DNA from: Escherichia phage Lindwurm
Sequence record: NC_134264.1
DNA length: 64,000 bases
Direction: 5' to 3' (one strand)
Part shown: piece by piece, positions 1,197 through 29,691 of the stretch
Layout: the number at the start of each line of letters is the position of its first letter
How positions within the stretch are numbered: position 1 is the stretch's first letter
Notes under the pieces: generated by a model
The model's database searches: none
What the model was told of the DNA's origin: nothing
Seen by the model: only the letters and a program-made list of their open reading frames with translations
Program-made: the position numbers and the translations under genes

Positions 1197-1589
1197 TCAT
1201 TCATCATTTAATCCCGGAACATAGATCCCAACACGGTTTAATTGTTCTTTAGCTTCTTTGAGAATATCTGGAGTGTACTCCCAAATATCATCTTCCACCT
1301 GTAAAAGATGGGGCGAACAACCATCATCCGGCACACGACATATGGCCAAACCACGTGGATGGAACAAAGAGAAGTTTAGGGCAACAATCAAGCCCATAGC
1401 AGACAATTCATTCCAATCCAATTCCCATTCCCCCGCGTAGCCGGATAGGAAAACACCAACACAGGGATCATCTGTTTGCTGCTCAGGAAAAGTGAAGGAG
1501 GCTTGTCTTACCCCCAACCAACGTTGTAGCAGCTTCTCCGCACGTTTCACCAAACTAGGGTCAATCTGACGCCAATATACTTGTTCCAT
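1197..1589 (-). CDS. hypothetical protein, paralogue of adjacent 142-aa ORF
   Basis: 130-aa ORF; shares WxELDxMGL(I/V)xALN and G(I/Y)xxPGL blocks with 1599..2027. Confidence 0.55.
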   Translation of the reverse strand: MEQVYWRQIDPSLVKRAEKLLQRWLGVRQASFTFPEQQTDDPCVGVFLSGYAGEWELDWNELSAMGLIVALNFSLFHPRGLAICRVPDDGCSPHLLQVEDDIWEYTPDILKEAKEQLNRVGIYVPGLNDE

Positions 1590-1598
1590 TATGCCTCC

Positions 1599-2027
1599 TT
1601 AGGCAGTTAAACCTGGGATCATATACCCGAAACGTCGAAGTTTCTGAATCCCCTCATTTACTTCTTCCGGTGAGTAAGACCAACCATAACGTTCATTAAT
1701 CTGAAAACCAGGAGATTCACTAGTTTTATAGTTAACAACTAGGCGATGCTTAGCAGGCATAAACAGCTTATAGTTTAACGCAAAAACTAAGCCCATTTCG
1801 TCTAACTCTTTCCAGCCCACAATCTCTTCAAGATCCTCCTCTACCTGAACAATTAAACCAATACAGGGAGCCTCATCAATATCATCTTTAAAAGCAAAGG
1901 AGATTTCGTTATTCTCACACCATATTTTCAAAGAGTTAATAGCCTCATTATACAGGCTAGCCGGGAGAGTACGCCAAAAGTTAACTAAAATTGGGTTAGC
2001 TTCTTTAGAGAATACATTATTGAACAT
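1599..2027 (-). CDS. hypothetical protein, paralogue of adjacent 130-aa ORF
   Basis: 142-aa ORF, tandem with and similar to 1197..1589. Confidence 0.55.
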   Translation of the reverse strand: MFNNVFSKEANPILVNFWRTLPASLYNEAINSLKIWCENNEISFAFKDDIDEAPCIGLIVQVEEDLEEIVGWKELDEMGLVFALNYKLFMPAKHRLVVNYKTSESPGFQINERYGWSYSPEEVNEGIQKLRRFGYMIPGLTA

Positions 2028-2029
2028 AT

Positions 2030-2542
2030 TTACACCTTAAATTGTTGCAAGGATTTACACATTTCAAGATTTGGGCTAAATTCTAGCATATAGCTAACAG
2101 CTTTTAAATCTTGAAGATTTATCCCAGTCCTACCGTTGACTATAACCGTTGGATACTGATACATCATAGCACCCGCATCATCAAGCACACACCAATGTTT
2201 GAGCTTATGCTTTTCAACGAAGCGAAGAACAGAATTACCCCTAGATAATCCACCCCCAGTAAAATCCGTTGTACCAAGAAAACGATCGATAAGACCTAAT
2301 CCGGTCATAATCTGAATGTTCTCCATCTCATTTCTGACAGAGAACCAAGATGATACTCCAACAATCATTATTGGAGAAGGACGAATAAAGTCCTGAAAAG
2401 CCTTGAGAAGCGGTTTGAAAACCCAATCACTTCCAAAGAAAATCTTTTCATCATCAGGCGCATGATATTGGGAGATGCTCGAATTGAGCACCCCATCAAT
2501 GTCTAGAAAAATAATTGGAGTATTACTTATTTCCTGACACAT
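2030..2542 (-). CDS. HAD-superfamily phosphatase-like protein
   Basis: N-terminal FLDIDGVL (DxDGx) motif typical of HAD hydrolases. Confidence 0.55.
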   Translation of the reverse strand: MCQEISNTPIIFLDIDGVLNSSISQYHAPDDEKIFFGSDWVFKPLLKAFQDFIRPSPIMIVGVSSWFSVRNEMENIQIMTGLGLIDRFLGTTDFTGGGLSRGNSVLRFVEKHKLKHWCVLDDAGAMMYQYPTVIVNGRTGINLQDLKAVSYMLEFSPNLEMCKSLQQFKV

Positions 2543-3338
2543 AAGGTCTACCCTCTAAATGAGCTTCTACACGAGCAATAAAATCAGGATCACTGAAAGC
2601 ATCTACCGCACCTTTACTCCAGTAAGGGATACCGCGTTCTTCCAGCTGGTACATCTCACTACGAGTCATACCTTGATAGCTCGGTTCCGCCGCTAGGGCA
2701 CTATCATAGTAGTTAACAACCATTAGCTTGGCAGCAGTCAAATTAAGAACAGGAAATAATTCCCAGTAGAAGTTAATTACTTGGTTAGAGCAACCAACCA
2801 CAACGATCATATCTTGACTGGTAATACCATCAAAAACATTGTACATTTCTGCGTACGCTGGAGCATGCTCCCCAAAAAAGATTACATTAGGTTTAACCCA
2901 TTTATAATCGTCTGGATCAATAGAATTGTACCCTACATCAATAATCCGTTTATTGCTACTATTGTAGCTATCAGCTACAACAACCTCTTTTAAATATCCG
3001 TGAATGTGCAGAATGTCACTATGTGGAACGCCAGCACGCTCAATAAGGTCATCAACGTTGGTAGTCAAGTTTACTACTTGGCCTGGATATTGTTTATACC
3101 ATTCACCAATACGCAAATGCGCAAGATTGGGTTCAACAGTTTTTAGCTCTTCACGACGCTTGTTGTAAAACATATGGGTTTTATGATAAAAATTACCACG
3201 AAAGGCATGAATATTACATACCTCTTCTAGATCATAATCATCCCACAATGCTTTACCGCTAGCAGTATCAGTACGAAAAGCTCGTACACCACTTTCAACA
3301 CTCAAACCTGCACCACTAATAATAATTAATCTACGCAT
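2523..3338 (-). CDS. Sir2-family (sirtuin-like) NAD-dependent enzyme
   Basis: GAGLSVESGVRAFR, TTNVDDLIERAG, HIHG, PNVIFFGE and VVVGCS blocks match sirtuin core; no CxxC zinc ribbon. Confidence 0.7.
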   Translation of the reverse strand: MRRLIIISGAGLSVESGVRAFRTDTASGKALWDDYDLEEVCNIHAFRGNFYHKTHMFYNKRREELKTVEPNLAHLRIGEWYKQYPGQVVNLTTNVDDLIERAGVPHSDILHIHGYLKEVVVADSYNSSNKRIIDVGYNSIDPDDYKWVKPNVIFFGEHAPAYAEMYNVFDGITSQDMIVVVGCSNQVINFYWELFPVLNLTAAKLMVVNYYDSALAAEPSYQGMTRSEMYQLEERGIPYWSKGAVDAFSDPDFIARVEAHLEGRPYVSGNK

Positions 3339-12647: not shown

Positions 12648-12980
12648 TTGCAGGGTGATAAAGAAACTATTACTAAGGAACAGGTATTATTAATACTAGA
12701 CTCTATCACTTCTAAATTCAGGACTTTAGAAGACTACTACTCTGTAGGCAATGGAGATGAGAAGGTAGAGTTATGTCTAAATCTCCTAGAAGATATGGGT
12801 TGGGATGAGGAAGATCAAGTAGGATATTTAGGTATATCTACAGAAATTCTAGAAAATACAGAGCATGAAAATATACTTGAAGTAAAGAGCAGAAGTGCTA
12901 TTCGGTATAATACTTATGGTACAGGTATTACAGGAATAAAAGCATTACTTAGTATAGATATAGGATGGTTAGATGAATAA
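12648..12980 (+). CDS. hypothetical protein (possible frameshifted 5' extension from ATG 12596)
   Basis: 110-aa ORF; good RBS+ATG at 12596 is in another frame and stops at 12658. Confidence 0.35.
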   Translation: MQGDKETITKEQVLLILDSITSKFRTLEDYYSVGNGDEKVELCLNLLEDMGWDEEDQVGYLGISTEILENTEHENILEVKSRSAIRYNTYGTGITGIKALLSIDIGWLDE

Positions 12981-13521
12981 AAAGTTACCTAGCCAAGAAA
13001 GATTAAAAGAATTATTAATCTATGATCCAGATACCGGTATATTTACTAATAAGGTAAGTCGTGGTAGGGGAGGAAAAGCAGGTTCACCCGCTGGATACCT
13101 AAGAAAAGATGGCTATATAACTATTAAGATAGATAAAATAGATTATTTAGCACATAGACTAGCCTTTCTATACATGACAGGATCAATACCAGATTTAATA
13201 GACCACAAAAATAGGATTAGGTCAGATAATAGGTGGATAAACCTAAGAGAAGCTACAAGCCAGTCTAATAATAGAAACTGTACCGCATCGAGTAAATCTG
13301 GATATCTAGGTGTACACTGGAACAAACAATTACAGAAATGGCAAGTACAGGTGATTGATAATAAAGGTAAAAATATTTATGGGGGTGTTTTTGACTACTT
13401 AGACCTAGAAAGTGCGGTCATAAAGGCTAATGAACTGAGAAAAACACTTCATGGTAGCGAAGCAGTTATAGAAGATTTCTATACTAACTATTACCCACCA
13501 GTAGAGGAACTTAATAAGTGA
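12973..13521 (+). CDS. HNH homing endonuclease with AP2-like DNA-binding domain
   Basis: IDHKNRIRSDNRWINLREATSQSNNRN HNH motif; GYLGVHW AP2-like block. Confidence 0.7.
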   Translation: MNKKLPSQERLKELLIYDPDTGIFTNKVSRGRGGKAGSPAGYLRKDGYITIKIDKIDYLAHRLAFLYMTGSIPDLIDHKNRIRSDNRWINLREATSQSNNRNCTASSKSGYLGVHWNKQLQKWQVQVIDNKGKNIYGGVFDYLDLESAVIKANELRKTLHGSEAVIEDFYTNYYPPVEELNK

Positions 13522-13994: not shown

Positions 13995-14014
13995 TAAATA
14001 AATTAAAAATTTTC

Positions 14015-14043
14015 TTGCTTAAAGCCCTCTAATTTAGTATAAT
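14015..14043 (+). promoter_or_regulatory. T5-type early promoter
   Basis: TTGCTT-17 bp-TATAAT. Confidence 0.6.
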
Positions 14044-14070: not shown

Positions 14071-14355
14071 ATGCGGATTTATAACTCAAATTCATTAGGA
14101 TTTAAACCATTGAGAAAACGTGCACAATCACCTCGTCAAATAAGAAAGGCTAATATTGGTGAGCCAGAGACACGACTTCCACCTCCTCCAGAACAACGTT
14201 TAGTTTATCTGGACGAAGAATTAGCGGAACGCGAAAGAAAAGCTCAAGAAGAGATTGAGCGTAAGAAAATGTGTACTGCTCCAGCCTACTCCAAAGGGGC
14301 TTATCAGTATATCTATACAGCCGAGGAGGCTAAAGATGCGGGGCGTAAAAAATGA
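14071..14355 (+). CDS. hypothetical protein
   Basis: 94-aa ORF with GAGGAGGG RBS. Confidence 0.5.
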   Translation: MRIYNSNSLGFKPLRKRAQSPRQIRKANIGEPETRLPPPPEQRLVYLDEELAERERKAQEEIERKKMCTAPAYSKGAYQYIYTAEEAKDAGRKK

Positions 14356-14801
14356 AGATTACCGAATTTAAAGGTACTTATAGTTTCTTATCTAACTTTT
14401 ATTTATCACCAATCACTTTCGAATACCTAAACGAGATATGGCATGCTGATACTGTAGAACATGCTTTTCAGGCTATGAAATCCGACCAAAAAGATGATGT
14501 AGCTCATGTACTGCGCTCCCTAAATGCAGGAGTTGCCAAACGTAGAGGACGTAAATTAACTCTACGCTCTGACTGGGATAAGGTAAAAGATGATGTAATG
14601 CTAGAGCTTTTACGGTTAAAGTTTGCAATACCTGATTTGAGAGACAAACTGTTAGCAACAAAAAATGCAACTTTGATCGAAGGAAATACCTGGGGAGATA
14701 CATATTGGGGTGTTTGTCGAGGCATCGGGGATAATACTCTAGGTGTTCTTTTGATGCAGGTAAGGTCTGAAATTAAAAGAAGCTTACAGTTAATAAATTA
14801 A
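14352..14801 (+). CDS. NADAR (YbiA-like) domain protein
   Basis: YSFLSNFY, EHAFQAMK and GNTWGDTYWG blocks typical of NADAR/DUF1768. Confidence 0.65.
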   Translation: MKITEFKGTYSFLSNFYLSPITFEYLNEIWHADTVEHAFQAMKSDQKDDVAHVLRSLNAGVAKRRGRKLTLRSDWDKVKDDVMLELLRLKFAIPDLRDKLLATKNATLIEGNTWGDTYWGVCRGIGDNTLGVLLMQVRSEIKRSLQLIN

Positions 14802-14809: not shown

Positions 14810-14838
14810 TTGCTAAACGCTTCAAATTCTCGTATAAT
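14810..14838 (+). promoter_or_regulatory. T5-type early promoter
   Basis: AAAAATTCATTTGCTA...CGTATAAT; TTGCTA-17 bp-TATAAT. Confidence 0.65.
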
Positions 14839-14876: not shown

Positions 14877-15392
14877 ATGGCTAAGCAGAAAAACGCAAAA
14901 ACTCAAGCAGCTCCGGCAGTTAAAACTTTCCCGCAGACCGAGGCTAATCGCAAAGCTCGCCTGGAACGTCACCTGCGTAAGCATCCTACCGATACCCAGG
15001 CTGCGCAAGCACTGAATAATCCGGCTCCGATTCGTAAGAAGCCTAAAGCTAAAAATGCCGCCCGTAAATCCTACAAAATGGTTATGTATGTAGAAAATTA
15101 CGGACACAAATCTGTCCCAGTTTCCCTGAGCTTCAACGCTGGGGCTGAATTGTTCTCTCGTAATGGTATGTCTATGAAAGACTATGAGAAGGCAGTTAAC
15201 CAGAAGCGTAAACCAACAGCAGATGTATTGCGTGATACTCGTGGACAGTTTGGTTCTGTTAAGCCAAATATCCTTGGCGTAGAGTATAGTAAAGATAATG
15301 TTCGTGCTCTGTGTTACGGTGTAGGCATTAAATTCACTGGTGATTCTGCTCGTAAATCTGCTAAACCAGCTCGCAAGCGTAAAGCGAAGTAA
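14877..15392 (+). CDS. hypothetical basic protein
   Basis: 171 aa with Lys/Arg-rich termini; AAAGGAAAAC RBS. Confidence 0.55.
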   Translation: MAKQKNAKTQAAPAVKTFPQTEANRKARLERHLRKHPTDTQAAQALNNPAPIRKKPKAKNAARKSYKMVMYVENYGHKSVPVSLSFNAGAELFSRNGMSMKDYEKAVNQKRKPTADVLRDTRGQFGSVKPNILGVEYSKDNVRALCYGVGIKFTGDSARKSAKPARKRKAK

Positions 15393-15962: not shown

Positions 15963-16664
15963 ATGAAAGTAAAACCATTTGGTATGCTAGATATTGAATC
16001 TCTAGGAACTCCAGGAGATTGTGGTACTACTCATATCGCAATGCCTTCTTTCGCTTTTGTGGCTATGCATGGAATTGATAAAGACCCTGACTTAGTATTT
16101 GTTACTTTGGATGTGCAGGATCAGCTTAATTCTGGTGCCAAAGTTACAGCATCTACTCTAGCATTCTGGATGGATCAGGCTAAACATAGCCCGTCTGCTA
16201 TCCACATTATGGAAGCTATGAATGAGCGTAATCCAAAACTGATTGCCTTCCAAAATGGTAAACATCATTGCACTAATAAACTTGGCTCTAACCATGCTGC
16301 CTTCTCTATGGCTCAAAATATTATGGAGTTGGCTCTAGGCGAAAATGCTTTGTATTATGGCAATGGCCCAGAGTTTGATATGACTATCTACTCTGCAAAC
16401 ACTTTCCATGCTGGAACCAATGAAGAAATAGTTCCGTGGAAATTCTGGAACTTGGGTAATGTTAGATCTCTTCGTAATCTCTGGATGCAAACTGGCTATA
16501 GTTATAAAGCTCTAGAAACCGAAGGTATTAGCTGGGCAATAGCTAAAATGGAGAAGATGGACACCATTCGTTATGGGATCTATCCGGTTAAGCACGATCC
16601 AGCATTCGATGCCCTAGTTGAGAGCTATTGTGTTGCAGCTATGATCGAAAAAGTGAAAATTTGA
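15963..16664 (+). CDS. hypothetical protein with DEDDh 3'-5' exonuclease-like motifs
   Basis: LDIESLG (DxE) near N-terminus and HDPAFDAL (Hx4D) near C-terminus. Confidence 0.45.
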   Translation: MKVKPFGMLDIESLGTPGDCGTTHIAMPSFAFVAMHGIDKDPDLVFVTLDVQDQLNSGAKVTASTLAFWMDQAKHSPSAIHIMEAMNERNPKLIAFQNGKHHCTNKLGSNHAAFSMAQNIMELALGENALYYGNGPEFDMTIYSANTFHAGTNEEIVPWKFWNLGNVRSLRNLWMQTGYSYKALETEGISWAIAKMEKMDTIRYGIYPVKHDPAFDALVESYCVAAMIEKVKI

Positions 16665-20451: not shown

Positions 20452-20525
20452 CGGGGTGTAGTCTAAGGGAGAGGCAGGAGTCTTCTAAATTCCTTTATGC
20501 AGGTTCGAATCCTGTCACCTCGGCC
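20452..20525 (+). tRNA. tRNA-Arg (anticodon TCT)
   Basis: 7-bp acceptor CGGGGTG/CACCTCG; T-arm GCAGG-TTCGAAT-CCTGT; loop cTTCTaa; CCA encoded. Confidence 0.75.
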
Positions 20526-20560
20526 AATTTTATTAACTGTAACTAAAACAAAGGAAACAT

Positions 20561-21508
20561 ATGTTTAATACTAAAAATATGAAAGAACTGACTTCTGAGC
20601 AGAAAGTAATTCGTACTATTAAACGTTGGGGTATTGGTGCTGTAGTTGGTTTAGCAGGCTTGATTCTAGCTTTTAATTCGTATACCATTGTTTCTGATGG
20701 TACGGTTAAAACCCAGACTTTCCTGGGTAAAGTAGACCCTAATCCAGTATTACCTGGTTTCCATCTTGTAAACCCGTTTGCATCTTTCGATACTTTTAGT
20801 ACAAAAGATATTGCTGTAAAATTAGATAAACTTCAGGTTCCTAGTCAGGATAAGTTTAAATCCACTGTTGACCTGACTGTTATGTTGCAGTTTGATGGTT
20901 CTAAGGCACCGATTAACCGTATTAACGCAGGTACTCAGGATCAGGCACTAGACAAGTATGTAACTGAAAAATTACTGTCTACTATTCGTGAGTTTGGTAA
21001 GTCTGTACCTAAAGCACAAGATTTGTTTGATGCTAAAATTCAGGCTCAATTGCAAACTGCAATTCAACAAGAAGTTGAAGAGTATGCACGCCCATATGGT
21101 TATACAGTTAAGCAGGTATTCCTTCAGGATATTACTTTGCCACCGGTAATCATGGAACAGGTACAGAATACCAAAGTTCGTGAAGAGCAAGTTAATGCTG
21201 CGAAAGCTGAACTGGCTCGTGTTGAACAAGAAGCACAGCAGAAGGTTAAACAAGCAGAAGCAGATCGTGAAGCTCGCAACAACCAAGCTATTGCTAATGA
21301 ACGTGACGCAGATGCTAAACTGTACGCAGCTAAGAAAGAAGCTGAAGCTAACGCCGCATTGCAACGTACCATTACTCCTGAGATGATTCGTTGGAAACAA
21401 CTGGAAGTTGAGATGATTCGTGCTCAGAAATATCAAGGTGGTGTACCTCAGACTGTGGTAGGTACTGGCTACGATGGTCAAATGATCATGGATATGCGTA
21501 ACAAATAA
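20561..21508 (+). CDS. SPFH/band-7 (prohibitin/HflK-like) membrane protein
   Basis: N-terminal TM helix, SPFH-like core and long Ala/Gln/Glu-rich coiled coil. Confidence 0.6.
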   Translation: MFNTKNMKELTSEQKVIRTIKRWGIGAVVGLAGLILAFNSYTIVSDGTVKTQTFLGKVDPNPVLPGFHLVNPFASFDTFSTKDIAVKLDKLQVPSQDKFKSTVDLTVMLQFDGSKAPINRINAGTQDQALDKYVTEKLLSTIREFGKSVPKAQDLFDAKIQAQLQTAIQQEVEEYARPYGYTVKQVFLQDITLPPVIMEQVQNTKVREEQVNAAKAELARVEQEAQQKVKQAEADREARNNQAIANERDADAKLYAAKKEAEANAALQRTITPEMIRWKQLEVEMIRAQKYQGGVPQTVVGTGYDGQMIMDMRNK

Positions 21509-21531
21509 TAGTTACACGTAATCTTCGAACC

Positions 21532-21568
21532 AAGCCCGCGTTTCCTCCGAGAGCGCAGGCTTTTCTGT
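21532..21568 (+). terminator. rho-independent terminator
   Basis: AGCCCGCG...CGCAGGCT stem followed by TTTTCTG. Confidence 0.5.
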
Positions 21569-21582
21569 ATTTAAGGCAAAAT

Positions 21583-21622
21583 AAAAAGCCCCTAAGTCTT
21601 TCGACTAGGGGCTTTATTGTTT
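21583..21622. terminator. bidirectional terminator
   Basis: Perfect 9-bp stem AGCCCCTAG/CTAGGGGCT flanked by A-run and T-run. Confidence 0.65.
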
Positions 21623-21628
21623 GGTTCC

Positions 21629-21823
21629 TTAGAACCATATACTCTTGTTACAGCAACCACCCATACGGGAGGCCAATCTTGACTGAAAATCTACTCTAGG
21701 GGGCAGGATAAGAGTAGGCTTAAAGGCAAACGGATTGAACGCCGGTATTTGCGTAAACATTGCTGGAGAGCAACAACGTGCTACAGGCATTGGGCAGCAC
21801 GAAACAGGTTTTCTGCAACACAT
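21629..21823 (-). CDS. small Cys-rich protein
   Basis: 64 aa with CC pairs (MCCRKPVSCC...ARCC...GGCCNK); strong AAGGAG RBS. Confidence 0.5.
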   Translation of the reverse strand: MCCRKPVSCCPMPVARCCSPAMFTQIPAFNPFAFKPTLILPPRVDFQSRLASRMGGCCNKSIWF

Positions 21824-21832
21824 AATTTCTCC

Positions 21833-22249
21833 TTAGGAGTTATTACCACCATTTTGAGCTTTTGCAATTTGGCTTTGGCAGAAGCTATTAAACTTACCCA
21901 TAAGTGATACAAGCTGTTTCCCATCCTCTGTCTTTGCGAAGTCTTCGAAAAGGGCTAGTACTGCCTGTCCTTCCGCGGAAACCTGTGGTTGTTGGGTTTG
22001 TTGCTGAACTTGCTGCTGAGGCACCTGTTGCTGCATTTGTTGGGGCATTTGCGACTGCCCGCTCATTTGCTGCATCATTTGCATAGGACTCACACTTCCA
22101 GGGTTTTGCTGGAGTTGTTGCTGCATCTGTTGCGCTTCTGCTAAACGCTGTTGCAATTGTTGTAAGTAGGGGTTATCCAGACCCGGAATGGGCTGCTGGG
22201 AGCCCATACTTTGATTAAGTCCGTTATTTACAAAACCATATTTACTCAT
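21833..22249 (-). CDS. Gln-rich low-complexity protein
   Basis: 138 aa with long Q-rich tracts. Confidence 0.5.
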   Translation of the reverse strand: MSKYGFVNNGLNQSMGSQQPIPGLDNPYLQQLQQRLAEAQQMQQQLQQNPGSVSPMQMMQQMSGQSQMPQQMQQQVPQQQVQQQTQQPQVSAEGQAVLALFEDFAKTEDGKQLVSLMGKFNSFCQSQIAKAQNGGNNS

Positions 22250-22270
22250 AATGGGCTCCTCCCCTTAATA

Positions 22271-23257
22271 TTAAGCCGGCAGTTTAGCCTGCAGACCAGC
22301 CAGAGTCTGAGTGATAGTACCAAGACTTAAAGCGATTTGATTAATTACCTGACCGTTAGCACCGCTACCCGCAGCGATTGCTTCACGTAGGCGACACGCA
22401 TCTAACTCATCCTGGATACGCGCAGTAGTTACACCGGCGATCGCAGTCTGAAGTTCACAGCAACATTCAGCAATCTGACGTTCCAGAGAGTTCTGGTTAG
22501 CACACATCTGAGCCTGAACAGCGGCAAACTGGTTATTAGTTTGTAAAGTCTGCTGGAAAGCGATCTGTGCAGAATCAAACTTATCTTGTGCACGAGCTAT
22601 CTGATTAGCTGCGAAAGATTGATCAATCTGGCGAGAAAGATCGAACTGGCCCTGAATAACGTTGCGAGTTTCCTGGCAGATCTGATTAGACAGATTAGCA
22701 CCTGTACCATAGATCGTAGTTAGTACAGACTGAGTATCACGGCTCTGGTTTTGGGATGTCTGGCTAAAACCATTGTTAACTGCGCTTAAAACAGCTCCAG
22801 TGCCCTGGTTAGCTTCTGTACGAGTAGTGTTAATAGCTGCTAGAATACTAGCGGTATCTTGGTTCTGAAGTACTGCATCAACTGCGGTACCTTCACCAAC
22901 TACACCACGCCCACCGAATCCACCGAAACCACCGAATCCGCCTGTTAATAGAGCACCGATTAGGATAGCTCCGAATAGTCCCATACCTTCACCACCGAAA
23001 GCACCTGCGTTTGCTGGGTAACCACCCAGTAGGCCAGGAAAGCCACTAGTGAATACGTTTACTGGTTCTTGCATTTTATGTTTTCCATATTTATGACAAT
23101 GTTCATCATCGTCATCTTCTTCATCGTCGTGTTCGCGATGTTTCTCTTCGTAGGCTCTGACCTTCTCCCACTTTTTCTTATCTGATTCCTCGTGACGGTG
23201 CAGTTCTGCTGCAACGCTAGCGACGGTCTCAGGACTCTTAGCTACTTCTTCTGTCAT
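22271..23257 (-). CDS. acidic / Gly-rich / Gln-Asn-rich protein
   Basis: Start MTEEVAK at 23257 with AGGAGG RBS; DDEEDDDDE tract, GGFGGFGGFGGRG tract, Q/N-rich C-terminus. Confidence 0.55.
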   Translation of the reverse strand: MTEEVAKSPETVASVAAELHRHEESDKKKWEKVRAYEEKHREHDDEEDDDDEHCHKYGKHKMQEPVNVFTSGFPGLLGGYPANAGAFGGEGMGLFGAILIGALLTGGFGGFGGFGGRGVVGEGTAVDAVLQNQDTASILAAINTTRTEANQGTGAVLSAVNNGFSQTSQNQSRDTQSVLTTIYGTGANLSNQICQETRNVIQGQFDLSRQIDQSFAANQIARAQDKFDSAQIAFQQTLQTNNQFAAVQAQMCANQNSLERQIAECCCELQTAIAGVTTARIQDELDACRLREAIAAGSGANGQVINQIALSLGTITQTLAGLQAKLPA

Positions 23258-23464
23258 TTTTTGACACCTCCTAGTATATAGAAAATGTGTGTCTCTTTGA
23301 TCACTCATCCATAACATATACTTTACACTACCCCAGCGAAAATGTCAAGGGGTCTTTAAAAATTGCCCCCGGATTTTTAGTGGGGTCACAAATTTTGGTC
23401 CTCACTACTTATCTGCTACCCTTAAATGCCCTATGATTTTCCTCTAAAAAGTTAAAAAATTTAA

Positions 23465-23493
23465 TTGCTTGAATGCTATATTCTCTGTATAAT
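23465..23493 (+). promoter_or_regulatory. T5-type early promoter
   Basis: TTGCTT-17 bp-TATAAT. Confidence 0.65.
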
Positions 23494-23523
23494 ATATCTA
23501 TAAATTTGAGAGAGGAACCAAAT

Positions 23524-24042
23524 ATGAATGTTGATGAGCTAACACAGCACCTCTTATCTAGAGGATTTGATACAGATAAATATCATTGCTGGTTAAGTAC
23601 GGAAGGATGGCTAACAGTCCCGTTGTATGACTTCTCTGGGATGTTGAGGGGCTATCAAACTTATAATCCTTCTGCTCCAAAAGGTCATGGTAAGTGCCCC
23701 TTTGAAGCTAAATACTTTACTTATTCTACTACCCAGTGTGTATGGGGACTAGAAACTCTCAATGGAGATGAAAAAGTAGTATTGATTGCTGAATCTGTAT
23801 TTAAGGCAGTTGCGTTACATAACGCTGGTTATCCAGCCCTAGCAATGTTGGGTTCTTCTCCAGGAAAAGCGTTATTAAAGCAACTGAAATTACTACCTTT
23901 TAAATTGATAGCTGTCGGGGACAATGATCCTGCGGGTGAAAAATTTGCTAGAAAATTAAACGGCTTTGTTTCTCCTGTAGATGTAGATGAGATGTCTACC
24001 GAAAACTTGAAAAATTTTCTTGCTATGAAGCTAAATTTCTAA
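23524..24042 (+). CDS. TOPRIM-domain protein (DnaG-primase-like)
   Basis: VVLIAESVFKAVALHNAGYPALAMLGSS and LIAVGDNDPAGEKFARKL match TOPRIM E...DxD motifs. Confidence 0.5.
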   Translation: MNVDELTQHLLSRGFDTDKYHCWLSTEGWLTVPLYDFSGMLRGYQTYNPSAPKGHGKCPFEAKYFTYSTTQCVWGLETLNGDEKVVLIAESVFKAVALHNAGYPALAMLGSSPGKALLKQLKLLPFKLIAVGDNDPAGEKFARKLNGFVSPVDVDEMSTENLKNFLAMKLNF

Positions 24043-24048
24043 TATAAT
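24020..24048 (+). promoter_or_regulatory. T5-type promoter preceding tRNA genes
   Basis: TTGCTA-17 bp-TATAAT overlapping 3' end of preceding ORF. Confidence 0.55.
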
Positions 24049-24063
24049 ATATCTTATAAATTC

Positions 24064-24152
24064 GGAAGAATAGCATAACGGTATTGCAGCAGATTGCTAA
24101 TCTGTCGGTTTGAAATATAGCCTTGTGGGTTCGATTCCCACTTCTTCCGCCA
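24064..24152 (+). tRNA. tRNA-Ser (anticodon GCT)
   Basis: Acceptor GGAAGAA/TTCTTCC; T-arm GTGGG-TTCGATT-CCCAC; loop ttGCTaa; long variable arm; CCA. Confidence 0.8.
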
Positions 24153-24158
24153 GATTTT

Positions 24159-24236
24159 GGTTCTCAAGCTCATATGGTATGAGCACCCAGCTCATAACTG
24201 GAAGGTACGTAGGTTCGAATCCTCGGGGAGCCACCA
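24159..24236 (+). tRNA. tRNA-Met-like (anticodon CAT), imperfect T-stem
   Basis: Acceptor GGTTCTC/GGGAGCC; D-stem GCTC/GAGC; loop ctCATaa; T-stem has 2 mismatches; CCA. Confidence 0.5.
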
Positions 24237-24254
24237 ATTAAATAGAGGTCACAA

Positions 24255-24443
24255 ATGGATCTATATATAGTTTATGTTGTGTTTATTCAAGATAGAGAAT
24301 ACCCGGATGAATATAAAAAAGGATATAGGTTAGCCAGAGCTACCTCTGAAGCCCAAGCTATGGATAAAGTGGCAGATTATATGATTACGGTAGAAAACGT
24401 ACACTATATCGACTACCTTGAAGCCTCAAAAGTAATTGACTAA
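24255..24443 (+). CDS. hypothetical protein
   Basis: 62-aa ORF after tRNA pair. Confidence 0.4.
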   Translation: MDLYIVYVVFIQDREYPDEYKKGYRLARATSEAQAMDKVADYMITVENVHYIDYLEASKVID

Positions 24444-24452
24444 GGAGACTAT

Positions 24453-24638
24453 ATGTCCAAGTTTCAAGAACTCAAGCAAGAGCTAGAAGAGTGTGCCTGC
24501 CCTGAGTGTAGGGGAATTGGTGAAAGTTCTGATGCAGAAGCAGGAGATACTTTTTGCAATATCTGGGTTTGCCCAAATTGCAATGGTACAGGTATTAATC
24601 CTAACTGTGGTATTTCCCTAGATATTGAACGAGGATAA
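24453..24638 (+). CDS. small Cys-rich zinc-ribbon-like protein
   Basis: CACPEC...CNIWVCPNC pairs; AAGGAG RBS. Confidence 0.45.
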   Translation: MSKFQELKQELEECACPECRGIGESSDAEAGDTFCNIWVCPNCNGTGINPNCGISLDIERG

Positions 24639-24738
24639 TACCTGTGAAACTAAAAGATTACTATATTGGTTGGTTTGTGGGACTAGTAGTAGGATTTTCA
24701 CTAGGCTATAATATGTATCAACTAATAAACTGATTACA

Positions 24739-24815
24739 TGGGGGTGTAATCGAATTGGCATAGGTACTGGACTTAAAATTCAGGTTTTGTGGGTTCGAAT
24801 CCCACCACCCCTACC
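24739..24815 (+). tRNA. tRNA-like gene (anticodon TAA, weak D-arm)
   Basis: Acceptor GGGGGTG/CACCCCT; T-arm GTGGG-TTCGAAT-CCCAC; loop cTTAAaa; no clean D-stem; CCA. Confidence 0.5.
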
Positions 24816-24991
24816 AAATTAAGGAAATAAGATGTATAGACATCCACCTCCGCCAACACGTCGTTCTAGAGAAGTTATTCTCATGGAGTTGACTAAAAAC
24901 TTCAAGGCAACTCTTGAAGATAGAGATCTAGGCACGGATGAAGACATTGATTTTATTTGTAGACTATTAAAGATGAAACTGGAGAAACAAC

Positions 24992-25198
24992 ATGGCTAAT
25001 CCTGAAATTACCGCACAACGTTTCATGCTTAAAGGTATGATTGCTGAGGCGGGTTTAACTCAAGAGGTTGCAGATTTTCATAAGCAATTTCTTGATATTA
25101 TAACTCTAGCTAAAGAAACTGGAGAAAAAGAACATGGAGCGGCAATTATGGCTATATCTCTTATTAGTCTAGACTTGGCTGAAGAATCTGGAGTTTAG
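24992..25198 (+). CDS. hypothetical protein
   Basis: 68-aa ORF. Confidence 0.45.
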   Translation: MANPEITAQRFMLKGMIAEAGLTQEVADFHKQFLDIITLAKETGEKEHGAAIMAISLISLDLAEESGV

Positions 25199-25228
25199 AT
25201 CCTCCAAACAGAATTTTTAAAAATGTAC

Positions 25229-25258
25229 TTGCCTTTTGCTTTAAATTTCTGGTATAAT
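25229..25258 (+). promoter_or_regulatory. T5-type early promoter
   Basis: TTGCCT-18 bp-TATAAT. Confidence 0.55.
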
Positions 25259-25288
25259 AGTTATATAAATTGATGAAGGAGTTAACGA

Positions 25289-25564
25289 ATGCAAAATCGT
25301 GTTATAGCAGCTGGTATTGAAAGTGCAATCTGTAAATCCTGGGAAGGCTGGGAAGGTGAGATTGAATGGCTTTATTTCTACGATGTAGAGCTTCTGCCGG
25401 AAATTAAAGCTAAATGTGTTGAAGCTGGCATGTCTCCAGATGCAAGAGCTGATATTGATATTTCAATGTCTGAACTTAAAGGTCGTGTAATCACTGTTAG
25501 TGATGAGGGCGAAGAAGTTTTTGAACTTCCGTTCTCCTTAACTGTCACTCCTAAGTTCGACTAA
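25289..25564 (+). CDS. hypothetical protein
   Basis: 91-aa ORF with AAGGAG RBS. Confidence 0.45.
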   Translation: MQNRVIAAGIESAICKSWEGWEGEIEWLYFYDVELLPEIKAKCVEAGMSPDARADIDISMSELKGRVITVSDEGEEVFELPFSLTVTPKFD

Positions 25565-25600
25565 CTAATACAGCATTGGGCAAGTTCTTTAAAATTTGAC

Positions 25601-25629
25601 TTGCCCAATACTATAAAACTTGGTATAAT
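25601..25629 (+). promoter_or_regulatory. promoter preceding tRNA cluster
   Basis: TTGCCC-17 bp-TATAAT. Confidence 0.5.
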
Positions 25630-25762
25630 ATTTATCTAATTTGGAAAGTTCTTTTTAAGGTAGTTCTTACTTTAGCAGAGTAAATTTTTGGCAGATGGCC
25701 CCCACCATTTTACCGATAACTCCTAGTCAGTGCGGTAACACTGGCTACCTTAAAGAGAATTT

Positions 25763-25850
25763 GGGCGTTTATTCCGTAAGTGGTAGCGGAGGGGACTGTA
25801 AATCCCTGGTCATTGCGACTCGAGTGGTTCGACTCCATTAACGCCCACCA
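25763..25850 (+). tRNA. tRNA-Tyr (anticodon GTA)
   Basis: Acceptor GGGCGTT/AACGCCC; stem GGGGA/TCCCT; loop ctGTAaa; long variable arm; CCA. Confidence 0.8.
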
Positions 25851-25857
25851 ATTTAAT

Positions 25858-25932
25858 GCACCTATCGTCTAGCGGTTAGGACACCACTCTTTCACAGTGG
25901 GAACACGAGTTCGATCCTCGTTGGGTGTGCCA
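25858..25932 (+). tRNA. tRNA-Glu (anticodon TTC)
   Basis: T-arm ACGAG-TTCGATC-CTCGT; stem CCACT/AGTGG; loop ctTTCac; CCA. Confidence 0.8.
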
Positions 25933-25941
25933 ATTAATAAT

Positions 25942-26012
25942 TGGGGTACGCATAGGTTGCAAATGGGCCTCCAAAACCCATGAAAAGGTTTCGAATACCT
26001 TTACCCCTGCCA
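25942..26012 (+). tRNA. tRNA-Trp-like (anticodon CCA), compact
   Basis: T-arm AAGGT-TTCGAAT-ACCTT; loop ctCCAaa with C-A closing mismatch; 3-bp D-stem; CCA. Confidence 0.5.
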
Positions 26013-26018
26013 AAATTT

Positions 26019-26093
26019 GCACCTTTAGCTGAGATGGATTAGCGCTTGCCTGAAGAGCTTGAGAGGTTCGTTCGATTCGAACAGGGTGCACCA
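26019..26093 (+). tRNA. tRNA-Phe-like (anticodon GAA)
   Basis: Acceptor GCACCTT/AGGGTGC; D-stem GCTG/TAGC; T-arm GTTCG-TTCGATT-CGAAC; loop ctGAAga; two U-U in anticodon stem. Confidence 0.55.
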
Positions 26094-26110
26094 ATTTGAG
26101 GGAGCTGCTG

Positions 26111-26383
26111 ATGCATCCTGAAAACTTCTTTATTTACTGCGCTGATAAGTCGCTGAAACGTAGAATTAACAAAGTCTATCATTATCGTGCTAGTCAACAG
26201 CCTTATGTATATGCTTTTGATGATGATCACATTCCACTAGAACAATTATCTTGTGATTACATGATATTGAAGAACTTTGACGAGACAAAGATCTCAAGCG
26301 TTCATAATCGACAGAATCCATTAACGTGGAAATATAAGAAGAAAAAGAAAGGCATCAAATTTTTAAAAAATGTAGTTGCTTAG
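26111..26383 (+). CDS. hypothetical protein
   Basis: 90-aa ORF from ATG 26111 with GAGGGA RBS. Confidence 0.45.
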   Translation: MHPENFFIYCADKSLKRRINKVYHYRASQQPYVYAFDDDHIPLEQLSCDYMILKNFDETKISSVHNRQNPLTWKYKKKKKGIKFLKNVVA

Positions 26384-26404
26384 TTTCCAAAAGTTCTGTA
26401 TAAT
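26376..26404 (+). promoter_or_regulatory. T5-type promoter preceding tRNA genes
   Basis: TTGCTT-17 bp-TATAAT. Confidence 0.6.
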
Positions 26405-26452
26405 AATTACATAAATTGAACTGGAGAAGCAACATGATAGAATAAGATAAAT

Positions 26453-26528
26453 CGACCGTTGGCTGAATGGCTTAGGCGAAGGATTGCAAATCCTTTTTAT
26501 GTGAGTTCAAATCTCATGCGGTCGTCCA
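26453..26528 (+). tRNA. tRNA-Cys (anticodon GCA)
   Basis: Acceptor CGACCGT/GCGGTCG; stem AAGGA/TCCTT; loop ttGCAaa; T-arm GTGAG-TTCAAAT-CTCAT; CCA. Confidence 0.8.
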
Positions 26529-26536
26529 AATTTTTA

Positions 26537-26619
26537 GGGTCGTTAGCCAAGTGGTTTGGCGGCGGATTGTTAATCCGTGTCGAAAGACAACGTAGGTTCG
26601 AATCCTACACGGCCCGCCA
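26537..26619 (+). tRNA. tRNA-Asn (anticodon GTT) with 13-nt variable region
   Basis: Acceptor GGGTCGT/ACGGCCC; D-stem GCCA/TGGC; loop ttGTTaa; T-arm GTAGG-TTCGAAT-CCTAC; CCA. Confidence 0.6.
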
Positions 26620-26721
26620 AATTCTGTGTAGAGTTAAGTAAACCGGTAGCCAACCAGCTATCATTGCTGATATCGAATTCAGCCACAGATACCGTTTTCA
26701 TTAATAACTGAGGAAACAAGC

Positions 26722-26907
26722 ATGTCCAAGAATGTAATTGCGCAGCTAGAAGTTCATCGTGATAGCACTATCAACAATATTGAAGTTGAGAAGAAATACA
26801 TCGAAGAACTTAAACATGATATACTGGTAAGTCTCAACCGTCTTAACGTACGAAAAGAGTTTCTTAAGGAACTTAATGCAGCTATTGAAAAACTCAAAGC
26901 TGAGTAA
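26722..26907 (+). CDS. hypothetical protein
   Basis: 61-aa coiled-coil-like ORF with GAGGAAAC RBS. Confidence 0.45.
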   Translation: MSKNVIAQLEVHRDSTINNIEVEKKYIEELKHDILVSLNRLNVRKEFLKELNAAIEKLKAE

Positions 26908-26916
26908 ATGAATTAT

Positions 26917-26993
26917 GCGACCGGGGCTGGCTTGGTAATGGTACTCCCCTGTCACGGGAGGGAATGTGGGTTCAAATCCCATCGGTCGCGCCA
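26917..26993 (+). tRNA. tRNA-Asp (anticodon GTC)
   Basis: Acceptor GCGACCG/CGGTCGC; stem CTCCC/GGGAG; loop ctGTCac; T-arm GTGGG-TTCAAAT-CCCAT; CCA. Confidence 0.8.
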
Positions 26994-27019
26994 AACTAAA
27001 CTAGCACGAGAAATATGCT

Positions 27020-27367
27020 ATGATTAATGCTAAAGAAGAATTGTTACTTGCCCTAAAGAATACTAATTCTGAAGTTAAGTGTATTAAGATAGAATTCGGT
27101 TATTATGGTGACAAAGAAGTTTGGGTATTGCCCGTAGGTTATACAGAAAAAGATATTGAAGATTTTCTAAATAATCTAGACTTTAAATATGATTCTGGTT
27201 ATGGTGGGCAATTGCTTTATGGTAACGTGTGGTTTACTGATGGAACTTGGTTAGAACGTGGTGAATACGACGGTTCTGAGTGGTGGGAATATAAGGCTAC
27301 GCCAGCAATCCCAGAAGAATGCCGAACAATTAATGGTGAAGTAGATCGTACTTTACTATTAAATTAA
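27020..27367 (+). CDS. hypothetical protein
   Basis: 115-aa ORF. Confidence 0.5.
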   Translation: MINAKEELLLALKNTNSEVKCIKIEFGYYGDKEVWVLPVGYTEKDIEDFLNNLDFKYDSGYGGQLLYGNVWFTDGTWLERGEYDGSEWWEYKATPAIPEECRTINGEVDRTLLLN

Positions 27368-27489
27368 CAAAATTTCAGTGCAGAACACGGAGCTAGCAAT
27401 TCGGAAGTGCTGACTCATGATAAGCTGCCTATGTACTTGCGAAGCGGTCGTGTCCAAGACTCGGACTCTTGCACTGAAAACAATCAAAC

Positions 27490-27610
27490 ATTCTAGCGTG
27501 GTTGATGGGGAAACCAGCTTGGCGAGGGCAGAAGCTCGTTCGATTCGAGTGAAAGAATGGTTCTCGTAAGTCCGCACAAGTGATAACAGGTTCGAGTCCT
27601 GTCTAGAATG
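27490..27610 (+). ncRNA. oversized tRNA-like element (~121 nt)
   Basis: Perfect 7-bp acceptor ATTCTAG/CTAGAAT and T-arm ACAGG-TTCGAGT-CCTGT enclosing ~95 nt with an inner T-arm-like hairpin. Confidence 0.4.
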
Positions 27611-27769
27611 ACACTATAAAGTTTACTTATTATGTAGGTTCCGGTAGACCGGCGGGTCTATTCTGGCATTTAAGAGAGGTCTCGCAAGCCTCTTTGTCAG
27701 CAGTGGGGTTGGTAGCCTCCAGGTGGCCTACACAATAAGTAAATTTATTAAAAATTCATTTGCTATTCT

Positions 27770-27798
27770 GCTTAATTCTCTGTATAATATATCTTATA
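27770..27798 (+). promoter_or_regulatory. T5-type early promoter
   Basis: TTGCTA-17 bp-TATAAT. Confidence 0.6.
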
Positions 27799-27820
27799 AA
27801 GTGAAGAGAAGGAAAGCTAA

Positions 27821-28018
27821 ATGAAGAAAGTTTTATTACTATCCGTATTCCTACTTACTGGTTGTTTTAAATTTGACTCAACCATTAATAAAGAGTATGA
27901 ATTTGCTAAAAATTTCTGTGGCGGAGAGAGTAATATAAAGAATTTCTACATATATAGTACGATTCCTAGTACCGTTTATTGTGTAGACGGACGAATTATT
28001 AATATTCCTCCACAATAA
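27821..28018 (+). CDS. small lipoprotein
   Basis: MKKVLLLSVFLLTGC signal peptide with lipobox LTGC. Confidence 0.5.
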   Translation: MKKVLLLSVFLLTGCFKFDSTINKEYEFAKNFCGGESNIKNFYIYSTIPSTVYCVDGRIINIPPQ

Positions 28019-28027
28019 AAGAATTAA

Positions 28028-28103
28028 CAGTGCGTAGCGCAGTTGGTAGCGTGGGAGCCTTGGATGCTTCGGGTCGCAGGTTCGAGTCCTGCCGCACTGA
28101 CCA
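28028..28103 (+). tRNA. tRNA-Pro (anticodon TGG)
   Basis: Acceptor CAGTGCG/CGCACTG; T-arm GCAGG-TTCGAGT-CCTGC; loop ctTGGat; CCA. Confidence 0.8.
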
Positions 28104-28109
28104 AACAAT

Positions 28110-28187
28110 TGCGGGTTAGATCTCTGGTAGAGATCACTAGTCTCATAAGCTAGAAAGAGGTAGGTTCGATTCCTGCACCCGCTTCCA
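28110..28187 (+). tRNA. tRNA-Met/Ile2 (anticodon CAT)
   Basis: Stem CTAGT/GCTAG; loop ctCATaa; T-arm GTAGG-TTCGATT-CCTGC; first acceptor pair mismatched; CCA. Confidence 0.65.
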
Positions 28188-28207
28188 TTTTAATAGAGGA
28201 TTTCGAA

Positions 28208-28375: not shown

Positions 28376-28376
28376 T

Positions 28377-28455: not shown

Positions 28456-28473
28456 ATTTCAAGAAAAATGCAG

Positions 28474-28908: not shown

Positions 28909-28913
28909 AATTT

Positions 28914-28998: not shown

Positions 28999-29014
28999 AC
29001 TTATAGGGTAATGT

Positions 29015-29679: not shown

Positions 29680-29691
29680 AACAATTTATAC

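What the first reader, a model, noticed from the sequence alone, without database searches (positions are those of the whole stretch)
14352..14801. NADAR-domain protein in early region
The YSFLSNFY, EHAFQAMK and GNTWGDTYWG blocks match the NADAR/YbiA fold, members of which hydrolyse ADP-ribose from modified guanine bases. In a phage this is a plausible eraser of host ADP-ribosyltransferase (DarT-type) marks on phage DNA. Together with the Sir2-like gene it suggests the phage invests in NAD/ADP-ribose biochemistry.
Basis: partly seen in the sequence, partly recalled or inferred. Interest (0 to 1): 0.6.

Follow-up and report, generated by a model that had tools for sequence, protein, structure and literature searches.

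The report
Known phage anti-DarT1 NADAR enzyme (AdfN)

Summary
The ORF at 14352..14801 (+, 149 aa) is real and all three quoted motifs are present. It is a clear NADAR protein: Pfam PF08719 E=6e-22. An AlphaFold model (pLDDT 97.8) superposes on E. coli YbiA (TM 0.83) and on Phytophthora NADAR bound to ADP-ribose (TM 0.78). The ADP-ribose-contacting residues E36, K43, E110, D116 and W119 are invariant in 59 homologues.

The window is a T5-like phage (Markadamsvirinae). Its NADAR is 100% identical to bas33_0070 of BASEL phage Bas33 and 147/149 identical to bas32_0066 of Bas32. Johannesman et al. (Nat Commun 2025) tested this protein as AdfN^Bas32. It neutralises DarT1 toxicity in E. coli and restores RB69, T5 and Bas25 to full titre on DarTG1 hosts. 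It does not counter DarTG2.

T5 itself lacks the gene at exactly this position and is DarTG1-sensitive.

The Sir2-like gene exists (2523..3338, minus strand). It lies 11 kb away in another transcription unit and is also present in NADAR-less T5, so no functional link is shown.

Still untested: in vitro activity of this protein, a deletion in its native phage, and whether its YbiA-type Glu active site also removes cytidine- or RNA-linked ADP-ribose.

The parts
14352..14801 (+). NADAR-family gene (149 aa), the T5-like-phage AdfN (anti-DarT factor NADAR). Predicted ADP-ribose/catalytic residues: E36 (14457-14459), K43 (14478-14480), R67, W75, K79, E110 (14679-14681), D116, W119.
   Evidence: ORF. 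Pfam NADAR E=6.3e-22. 100% aa identity to bas33_0070 and 147/149 to bas32_0066. AF2 pLDDT 97.8. Foldseek YbiA TM 0.83 and 8bau TM 0.78. Invariant residues.
14071..14355 (+). Upstream 94-aa ORF of unknown function (homologue of T5.090, PHROG 4593). Its TGA stop overlaps the NADAR ATG (ATGA), so the two are probably co-transcribed and translationally coupled. Its last ~20 codons diverge from T5.090, marking the left edge of the NADAR indel.
14014..14042 (+). Sigma-70-type promoter (TTGCTT-17-TATAAT), identical to the sequence that the T5 record annotates as a promoter upstream of T5.090. Likely drives the two-gene unit of the T5.090 homologue plus NADAR.
   Evidence: Sequence compared with the T5 sequence and the T5 annotation. 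Inferred, not measured.
14810..14838 (+). Next promoter (TTGCTA-17-TATAAT), the homologue of T5 promoter P-H207. It starts 9 bp after the NADAR stop and serves the DUF7022 gene (14877..15392). It marks the right edge of the NADAR indel relative to T5.

Best explanation
The gene encodes an orphan, core-only NADAR ADP-ribosylglycohydrolase, the T5-like-phage AdfN. It is made early in infection from a sigma-70 promoter, as the second cistron of a two-gene unit. It removes ADP-ribose that the host DarT1 toxin (DarTG1 defence system) places on guanine N2 in phage DNA, so replication can proceed. It acts as an antitoxin mimic without a cognate toxin, and it needs no other phage factor. Shown by experiment, on a protein with 0-2 residue differences: DarT1 neutralisation in cells, rescue of heterologous phages on DarTG1, and no effect on thymidine-specific DarTG2. 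Inferred: the glycohydrolase chemistry for this particular protein (from fold and residues), its early expression, and its necessity in its own phage.
For: Identity to the tested protein: 149/149 aa to bas33_0070 of HildyBeyeler, with all 15 nucleotide differences synonymous, and 147/149 to bas32_0066 (T9A, K104E). Published test of AdfN^Bas32: it neutralises DarT1 in E. coli without phage, restores RB69, T5 and Bas25 to full titre on DarTG1, and does not change T5 plaquing on DarTG2 (PMC11825919). Family and fold: Pfam NADAR 79 bits against a cut-off of 35.1. AF2 model pLDDT 97.8, pTM 0.91. Foldseek matches YbiA 2b3w (TM 0.83) and ADP-ribose-bound PnNADAR 8bau (TM 0.78), with nothing else at E<1. 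Active site: E36 and K43 align column for column with T4 AdfN E36/K43, whose Ala mutants lose function. E110, D116 and W119 match PnNADAR E125, D130 and W133, which contact ADP-ribose. E36, K43, E110, D116 and W119 are invariant in 59 homologues of 47-60% identity. Natural presence/absence: T5 lacks the gene at exactly this site, where T5.090 is followed by promoter P-H207 and T5.089. T5 is restricted by DarTG1 and is rescued by supplying this protein. The gene is accessory: it occurs in 94 of 440 phage records that match the 2-kb neighbourhood.
Against: The published tests used ectopic expression from a tet promoter. The text held here reports no deletion in Bas32/Bas33 and no in vitro assay of this protein. 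The tested clone is named after Bas32, whose GenBank protein differs from the window's at two positions, although the paper calls the Bas32 and Bas33 proteins identical. By sequence the protein is closest to E. coli YbiA (41% identity; profile E=3e-37), and YbiA itself failed to rescue DarT1 toxicity in vivo (PMC11125620). It has no significant BLASTP similarity to T4 AdfN (E=1.2). It lacks both DarG1 hallmarks: the Asp at the third catalytic position and the N-terminal extension.
Confidence: 0.87

Rival explanations
1. It is a YbiA-type metabolite-repair enzyme: an N-glycosidase that destroys reactive riboflavin-pathway intermediates, as described for E. coli YbiA and plant COG3236 proteins. 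On this view any DNA de-ADP-ribosylation is a side activity.
For: The best solved-structure match is E. coli YbiA (E=2.8e-15 with the single sequence; E=3.2e-37 with the profile; TM 0.83; 41% identity). NCBIfam TIGR02464 'riboflavin biosynthesis intermediates N-glycosidase' scores 66.8 bits. The third catalytic residue is the YbiA-type Glu (E110). Many homologues carry the JGI name 'ribA/ribD-fused uncharacterized protein'.
Against: The TIGR02464 score is below its curated cut-off of 73.7. No riboflavin gene is seen among the annotated neighbours. The protein gives a strong and specific anti-DarT1 phenotype. It is an accessory gene whose absence in T5 matches DarTG1 sensitivity. A lytic phage has no evident need for riboflavin damage control.
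Confidence: 0.04
2. Its main natural target is not DarT1 but another nucleic-acid ADP-ribosyltransferase, such as a pierisin/ScARP-like or YarT-like toxin, or RNA or cytidine ADP-ribosylation. DarT1 reversal would then be one facet of a broader eraser.
For: Glu-type NADARs (the NADAR and YbiA families) also remove cytidine-ADPr from DNA and RNA, whereas the Asp-type (DarG1) and His-type (T4) enzymes act on guanosine only (PMC12945103). A YbiA-family NADAR is the antitoxin for the DarT-unrelated toxin YarT (PMC11125620). The window protein carries Glu (E110) and is closest to YbiA. The authors of the AdfN paper raise the possibility of other targets themselves.
Against: No such activity has been tested for this protein, and no such defence toxin is known in E. 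coli or Salmonella hosts of T5-like phages. The DarTG1 phenotype is complete: full titre is restored.
Confidence: 0.1
3. NADAR works together with the phage Sir2-like protein in one NAD/ADP-ribose pathway, for example by processing Sir2 reaction products.
For: A Sir2-family gene is present in the same window (2523..3338, minus strand; Pfam SIR2 E=1.2e-24). [quoted passage not shown]
Against: The two genes are 11 kb apart, on opposite strands and in different transcription units. T5 has the Sir2 gene (T5.102) and the adjacent HAD gene (T5.105) but no NADAR, so they do not co-vary. AdfN^Bas32 works alone in E. coli.
Confidence: 0.02

Closest known systems
AdfN^Bas32 (anti-DarT factor NADAR of BASEL phages Bas32/Bas33; Johannesman, Carlson, LeRoux and co-authors, Nat Commun 2025, PMC11825919)
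   Same: It is the same protein: 149/149 aa with bas33_0070 and 147/149 with bas32_0066. It has the same genomic slot (rnh, then the T5.090 homologue, then NADAR, then the DUF7022 gene) and the same phage subfamily, Markadamsvirinae.
   Different: The window phage is a different isolate, with 15 synonymous nucleotide differences from Bas33 in this gene. Compared with the GenBank Bas32 protein it has T9 rather than A, and K104 rather than E.
E. coli YbiA (PDB 2b3w), the YbiA-type NADAR / riboflavin-intermediate N-glycosidase
   Same: It is the closest solved structure (TM 0.83) and shares 41% identity over 132 aa. It has the same core-only architecture and the same Glu/Lys/Glu active-site pattern. 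YbiA also removes G-ADPr in vitro.
   Different: YbiA does not protect cells from DarT1, whereas AdfN^Bas32 does. The window protein scores below the TIGR02464 cut-off. It is phage-borne and is not in the LexA-controlled dinG-ybiB operon.
AdfN^T4 (T4 gp30.3), the T4-type phage NADAR
   Same: It has the same role as an orphan anti-DarTG1 NADAR, and E36 and K43 sit at identical positions in the alignment.
   Different: There is no significant pairwise similarity (BLASTP E=1.2). T4-type enzymes have His where the window protein has E110. AdfN^T4 works fully only in T-even infections, whereas AdfN^Bas32 works alone in E. coli. The two appear to be independent acquisitions.
DarG1 (DarT1-associated NADAR antitoxin, e.g. 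E. coli C7 and Geobacter lovleyi)
   Same: It has the same fold superfamily and the same substrate, guanine-N2-ADP-ribose made by DarT1. Both neutralise DarT1 enzymatically.
   Different: The window protein has no adjacent darT1 and no N-terminal beta-beta-alpha extension. It has Glu rather than Asp at the third catalytic position. It gives no hit to a DarG1 structure at E<=1 in the PDB sequence searches and only a weak PADLOC hit to an unrelated candidate model.
Phytophthora nicotianae NADAR (PDB 8bau, ADP-ribose complex)
   Same: The fold matches (TM 0.78). The ADP-ribose-contacting residues E43, K50, R79, W89, E125, D130 and W133 correspond to E36, K43, R67, W75, E110, D116 and W119.
   Different: It shares 26-30% identity, is eukaryotic, and has an extra N-terminal segment and an internal insertion that the phage protein lacks. 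R93 corresponds to K79.

Membership tests
NADAR superfamily (Pfam PF08719 / DUF1768) | Profile-HMM score above the curated gathering threshold over the full domain | tested here: met
   79 bits against a cut-off of 35.1, E=6.3e-22, profile positions 9-163 of 163
NADAR superfamily (Pfam PF08719 / DUF1768) | YbiA-like alpha-helical core fold | tested here: met
   AF2 model pLDDT 97.8, pTM 0.91. Foldseek against PDB: 2b3w TM 0.83 and 8bau TM 0.78; no other hit at E<1
NADAR superfamily (Pfam PF08719 / DUF1768) | Conserved Glu and Lys of the E-x6-K motif that bind the distal ribose and diphosphate, plus an acidic or His third residue | tested here: met
   E36, K43 and E110 are present. They align with PnNADAR E43/K50/E125 and T4 AdfN E36/K43 and are invariant in 59 homologues
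AdfN (phage anti-DarT factor NADAR), Bas32 type | Sequence identity with the experimentally tested AdfN^Bas32 | tested here: met
   149/149 with Bas33 bas33_0070 and 147/149 with Bas32 bas32_0066. The paper states that the Bas32 and Bas33 proteins are identical
AdfN (phage anti-DarT factor NADAR), Bas32 type | Neutralises DarT1 and restores phage growth on DarTG1 hosts | not testable with these tools
   Published for AdfN^Bas32 (PMC11825919); not re-testable in silico
AdfN (phage anti-DarT factor NADAR), Bas32 type | Orphan gene: phage-encoded with no cognate toxin next to it | tested here: met
   The neighbours are RNase H, a PHROG 4593 protein, a DUF7022 protein and an Rv2179c-like exonuclease; none is an ADP-ribosyltransferase
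DarG1 (DarT1-linked NADAR antitoxin) | Encoded next to darT1 | tested here: not met
   No DarT-like neighbour
DarG1 (DarT1-linked NADAR antitoxin) | N-terminal beta1-beta2-alpha1 extension of the YbiA core, and Asp at the third catalytic position (D171 in E. coli C7) | tested here: not met
   The 149-aa protein starts directly with the core (Pfam match from residue 9; secondary structure). The third catalytic position is Glu, E110
YbiA-type riboflavin-intermediate N-glycosidase (TIGR02464) | Score above the NCBIfam equivalog-domain cut-off | tested here: not met
   66.8 bits against a cut-off of 73.7
YbiA-type riboflavin-intermediate N-glycosidase (TIGR02464) | Conserved Glu at the PnNADAR E125 position, the YbiA-subfamily hallmark of de Souza and Aravind as quoted in PMC11543638 | tested here: met
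   E110 aligns with the Glu of YbiA and of PnNADAR
T4-type phage NADAR (gp30.3 family) | Detectable sequence similarity to gp30.3, and His at the third catalytic position | tested here: not met
   BLASTP E=1.2. T4 has His where the window protein has E110

The most novel reading that the evidence does not exclude
This AdfN has the Glu-type (YbiA/NADAR-family) active site rather than the Asp (DarG1) or His (T4) type. It may therefore be a broader eraser than a DarT1-specific antidote. It could also remove cytidine-linked and RNA-linked ADP-ribose, and so protect T5-like phages from DNA/RNA ADP-ribosylating defence toxins that are not yet described, as well as from DarT1.
Probability: 0.12. Interest if true: 0.45.

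Novelty: already known. Interest (0 to 1): 0.12.

Why it matters
It illustrates how phages disarm a toxin-antitoxin defence by carrying an orphan copy of an antitoxin-like enzyme. For this window, however, it adds only another isolate carrying a published counter-defence gene. There are two practical points. Most GenBank records label this gene 'swarming motility protein', 'GTP cyclohydrolase II' or 'hypothetical', and these labels could be corrected to AdfN/NADAR. Its presence or absence (about one fifth of the T5-like records matched here) should predict which T5-like phages, including therapeutic candidates, can grow on DarTG1-carrying E. coli and Salmonella.

Tried and rejected
1. Single-sequence AlphaFold gave an unusable model (pLDDT 49). 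It was replaced by a run with a 59-sequence alignment.

2. I looked for supplementary tables of PMC11825919 to find which accession was cloned as AdfN^Bas32. None are held, so the discrepancy between 'identical' in the paper and two differences in GenBank stays unresolved.

3. I searched the literature for a native deletion or in vitro assay of the T5-like NADAR. I found only T4 adfN work (HIDEN-SEQ) and nothing on Markadamsvirinae beyond the AdfN paper.

4. PADLOC gave only a weak hit to candidate model PDC-M42C (E=6e-7) and none to a DarG model. The NCBIfam 'DS32_2 NADAR family anti-phage protein' model scored 45 bits against a cut-off of 240. Both were rejected as memberships.

5. I considered a Sir2-NADAR functional pairing and rejected it on distance, strand and lack of co-variation.

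6. I considered that the UTK0009-type NADAR might be a common second allele in T5-like phages. It occurs in only that one phage, as two records.

7. MAFFT misplaced both the PnNADAR E-x6-K segment and the T5 indel gap. I read both from the HMMER alignments and the raw sequence instead.

Full report
**Observation.** The window has an ATG-initiated ORF at exactly 14352..14801 on the + strand, encoding 149 aa. The ORF's ATG overlaps the TGA stop of the preceding 94-aa ORF (ATGA at 14352-14355).

**Family assignment.**
- Pfam NADAR (PF08719) matches over essentially the whole profile, with E=6.3e-22 and 79 bits against a gathering score of 35.1.
- PHROG 1017, a family of unknown function, matches at E=8e-45.
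- In the PDB sequence search, only E. coli YbiA (2b3w, E=2.8e-15) and Phytophthora nicotianae NADAR (8bau, E=6.8e-7) are significant.
- A profile of 59 homologues raises these to 3.2e-37 and 4e-19.
- A single-sequence AlphaFold run was unusable (pLDDT 49). With the 59-sequence alignment the model has pLDDT 97.8 and pTM 0.91.
- Foldseek against the PDB returns only YbiA (TM 0.83) and the ADP-ribose complex of PnNADAR (TM 0.78) at E<1.

**Active site.** Schuller et al. (PMC11543638) list the PnNADAR residues that contact ADP-ribose: E43, K50, R79, W89, R93, E125, D130 and W133. From the HMMER alignments these correspond in the window protein to E36, K43, R67, W75, K79, E110, D116 and W119.

In a MAFFT alignment, E36 and K43 fall in the same columns as E36 and K43 of T4 AdfN/gp30.3. 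Alanine mutants of those T4 residues abolish DarTG1 counter-defence and in vitro activity. E36, Q40, K43, E110, D116 and W119 are invariant across 59 homologues sharing 47-60% identity with the query.

The third catalytic position is Glu (E110). That is the YbiA/NADAR-family state, not the Asp of DarT1-linked DarG1 or the His of T4-type phage NADARs.

**What the window is, and which protein this is.** The 2-kb neighbourhood matches 440 phage records, nearly all Salmonella, Escherichia or Shigella T5-like phages (Demerecviridae, Markadamsvirinae).

A tblastn search shows the protein is 100% identical to one encoded in Escherichia phage HildyBeyeler (MZ501074), locus tag bas33_0070, annotated 'hypothetical protein'. 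A direct comparison gives 149/149 residues, with all 15 nucleotide differences synonymous. The orthologue in IrisVonRoten (MZ501075, bas32_0066) differs at two residues, T9A and K104E.

Johannesman et al. (bioRxiv 2024, PMC11257639; Nat Commun 2025, PMC11825919) state that Bas32 and Bas33, 'Markadamsvirinae closely related to T5', encode identical NADAR proteins. They named the protein AdfN^Bas32 and tested it:
- It restores RB69, T5 and Bas25 to full titre on DarTG1 hosts.
- It does not affect T5 restriction by thymidine-specific DarTG2.

**Genomic anatomy.** The gene lies in the T5 early nucleotide-metabolism block. The order is nrdB, frd, thy, (HNH endonuclease), rnh, T5.090 homologue, NADAR, DUF7022 gene, and onward.

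In T5 itself (NC_005859), T5.090 is followed directly by the annotated promoter P-H207 and then T5.089. There is no NADAR.

Alignment and raw sequence place the indel precisely:
- The two phages are nearly identical through the promoter upstream of T5.090. That promoter is TTGCTT-17-TATAAT at window 14014-14042, the same sequence that the T5 record annotates as a promoter.
- They remain nearly identical through most of the T5.090 homologue, then diverge over its last ~20 codons.
- They rejoin at 'AAAAATTCATTTGCTAAACGC...', immediately after the NADAR stop. This is the P-H207 homologue (TTGCTA-17-TATAAT, 14810-14838).

No terminator-like site separates the T5.090 homologue from NADAR. I therefore infer a two-gene early transcript with translational coupling through the ATGA overlap; this is inference, not measurement.

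The gene is accessory. 94 records carry it at 95% nucleotide identity or more, out of the 440 that match the neighbourhood. Its absence from T5 agrees with T5 being DarTG1-sensitive and rescued by AdfN^Bas32.

**Mechanism.** Most likely (confidence about 0.87), the protein is expressed early and hydrolyses the N-glycosidic bond between ADP-ribose and guanine N2 that DarT1 installs on phage DNA. It would act as an orphan antitoxin mimic that needs no other phage factor.

- Shown, in the literature and for a near-identical protein: DarT1 neutralisation, rescue of phages, and no action against DarTG2.
- Inferred: the hydrolase chemistry for this protein (from fold and residues), its timing of expression, and its necessity in its own phage.

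The text available to me reports no deletion in Bas32/33 and no in vitro assay of AdfN^Bas32. I found no later paper on it.

**Rival explanations.**
1. *A YbiA-type riboflavin-intermediate N-glycosidase.* By sequence the protein is nearer to E. coli YbiA (41% identity) than to any other characterised NADAR, and it has the YbiA-type Glu. However, TIGR02464 scores 66.8 bits, below its cut-off of 73.7. There is no riboflavin gene context, and the DarT1 phenotype is strong. E. coli YbiA itself does not rescue DarT1 toxicity in vivo, so closeness to YbiA does not predict the phenotype in either direction.
2. *A broader eraser.* Glu-type NADARs also remove cytidine-ADPr from DNA and RNA, whereas the Asp and His types do not (PMC12945103). 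A YbiA-family NADAR is the antitoxin for the non-DarT toxin YarT. This is untested for the window protein and is the most novel reading my evidence leaves open.
3. *Partnership with the phage Sir2.* The Sir2 gene is real (2523..3338, minus strand; Pfam SIR2 E=1.2e-24). It is 11 kb away on the other strand, and T5 has it (T5.102) while lacking NADAR. Nothing links the two genes.

**Comparison with known families.**
- It is a member of the NADAR superfamily, by HMM, fold and residues.
- For practical purposes it is AdfN^Bas32.
- It is not a DarG1. It has no adjacent darT1, no N-terminal extension, and Glu instead of Asp. It gives no hit to a DarG1 structure in the sequence searches, and only a weak PADLOC hit to a candidate model.
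- It is not a T4-type AdfN (BLASTP E=1.2; His versus Glu). This supports the published view that phages acquired NADARs independently more than once.
- It falls just below the curated threshold for the YbiA equivalog.

**Novelty and verdict.** The finding is already known. The Sir2 remark is not supported.

Interest is low for discovery purposes. The residual value lies in annotation: most records call this gene 'swarming motility protein', 'GTP cyclohydrolase II' or 'hypothetical'. It could also help predict DarTG1 host range among T5-like phages. The open questions are the protein's wider substrate range and its role in its native phage.

Noticed in passing
L002 1501-1950 (MZ501075 bas32_0066) vs window 14352-14801 and L001 4001-4450 (MZ501074 bas33_0070): The AdfN paper says Bas32 and Bas33 encode identical NADARs. 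The GenBank records differ at two residues: Bas32 has A9 and E104, while Bas33 and the window have T9 and K104. Neither is a predicted active-site residue.
   Followed up: partly
window 12648-13521 (+): An HNH_3 homing-endonuclease ORF (12973..13521, Pfam E=1e-13) and a 110-aa ORF (12648..12980) lie between thymidylate synthase and RNase H. T5 has only a promoter-bearing spacer there, and Bas33 has a different small ORF. This is another indel hot spot, just upstream of the NADAR slot.
   Followed up: partly
window 1197-3338 (-): The Sir2-family gene (2523..3338) overlaps the start of a HAD_SAK_2 gene (2030..2542), a 'Swiss Army Knife RNA repair' HAD domain (E=1e-19) that related records mislabel as a second Sir2. 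Two paralogous DUF7415 genes follow (1599..2027 and 1197..1589). The whole block is conserved in T5 (T5.102-T5.107). Its function is unknown and may be worth its own look.
   Followed up: partly
L005 1989-2438 (Salmonella phage vB_SenS_UTK0009, NC_111487): An Epseptimavirus carries a NADAR only 60% identical to the window's, in a different slot: directly after rnh and before the T5.090 homologue. This allele occurs in that phage only, which suggests a second, independent NADAR insertion in the same neighbourhood.
   Followed up: partly
window 14287-14355 (+): The last ~20 codons of the T5.090 homologue diverge sharply from T5, although the rest of the gene is about 95% identical. This looks like the recombination scar of the NADAR cassette, and it creates the ATGA overlap.
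   Followed up: partly
window 14352-14801, compared with records listed: Public annotations of this gene are inconsistent and mostly misleading: 'swarming motility protein (YbiA)', 'GTP cyclohydrolase II', 'DUF1768 domain-containing protein' and 'hypothetical protein'. Among the records listed, only one (Salmonella phage WP85) says 'antitoxin-like enzyme' and one phage (JNwz02, GenBank and RefSeq records) says 'NADAR domain-containing protein'.
   Followed up: no
window 15963-16664 (+): A 233-aa ORF matches Pfam Rv2179c-like 3'-5' exoribonuclease (E=4e-8) and the PHROG 255 exonuclease family. Related phages annotate it as 'putative metallopeptidase' or 'exonuclease'.
   Followed up: no
window 20452-32451 (+): There is a cluster of 21 tRNA genes, typical of T5-like phages. 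It includes two tRNA-Met(CAT), two tRNA-Gln, two tRNA-Ser and two tRNA-Leu.
   Followed up: no
window 14877-15392 (+): The gene immediately downstream of NADAR encodes a lysine-rich DUF7022 protein (Pfam E=1e-74; T5.089 homologue) with its own strong promoter. Its function is unknown and it is conserved whether or not NADAR is present.
   Followed up: no
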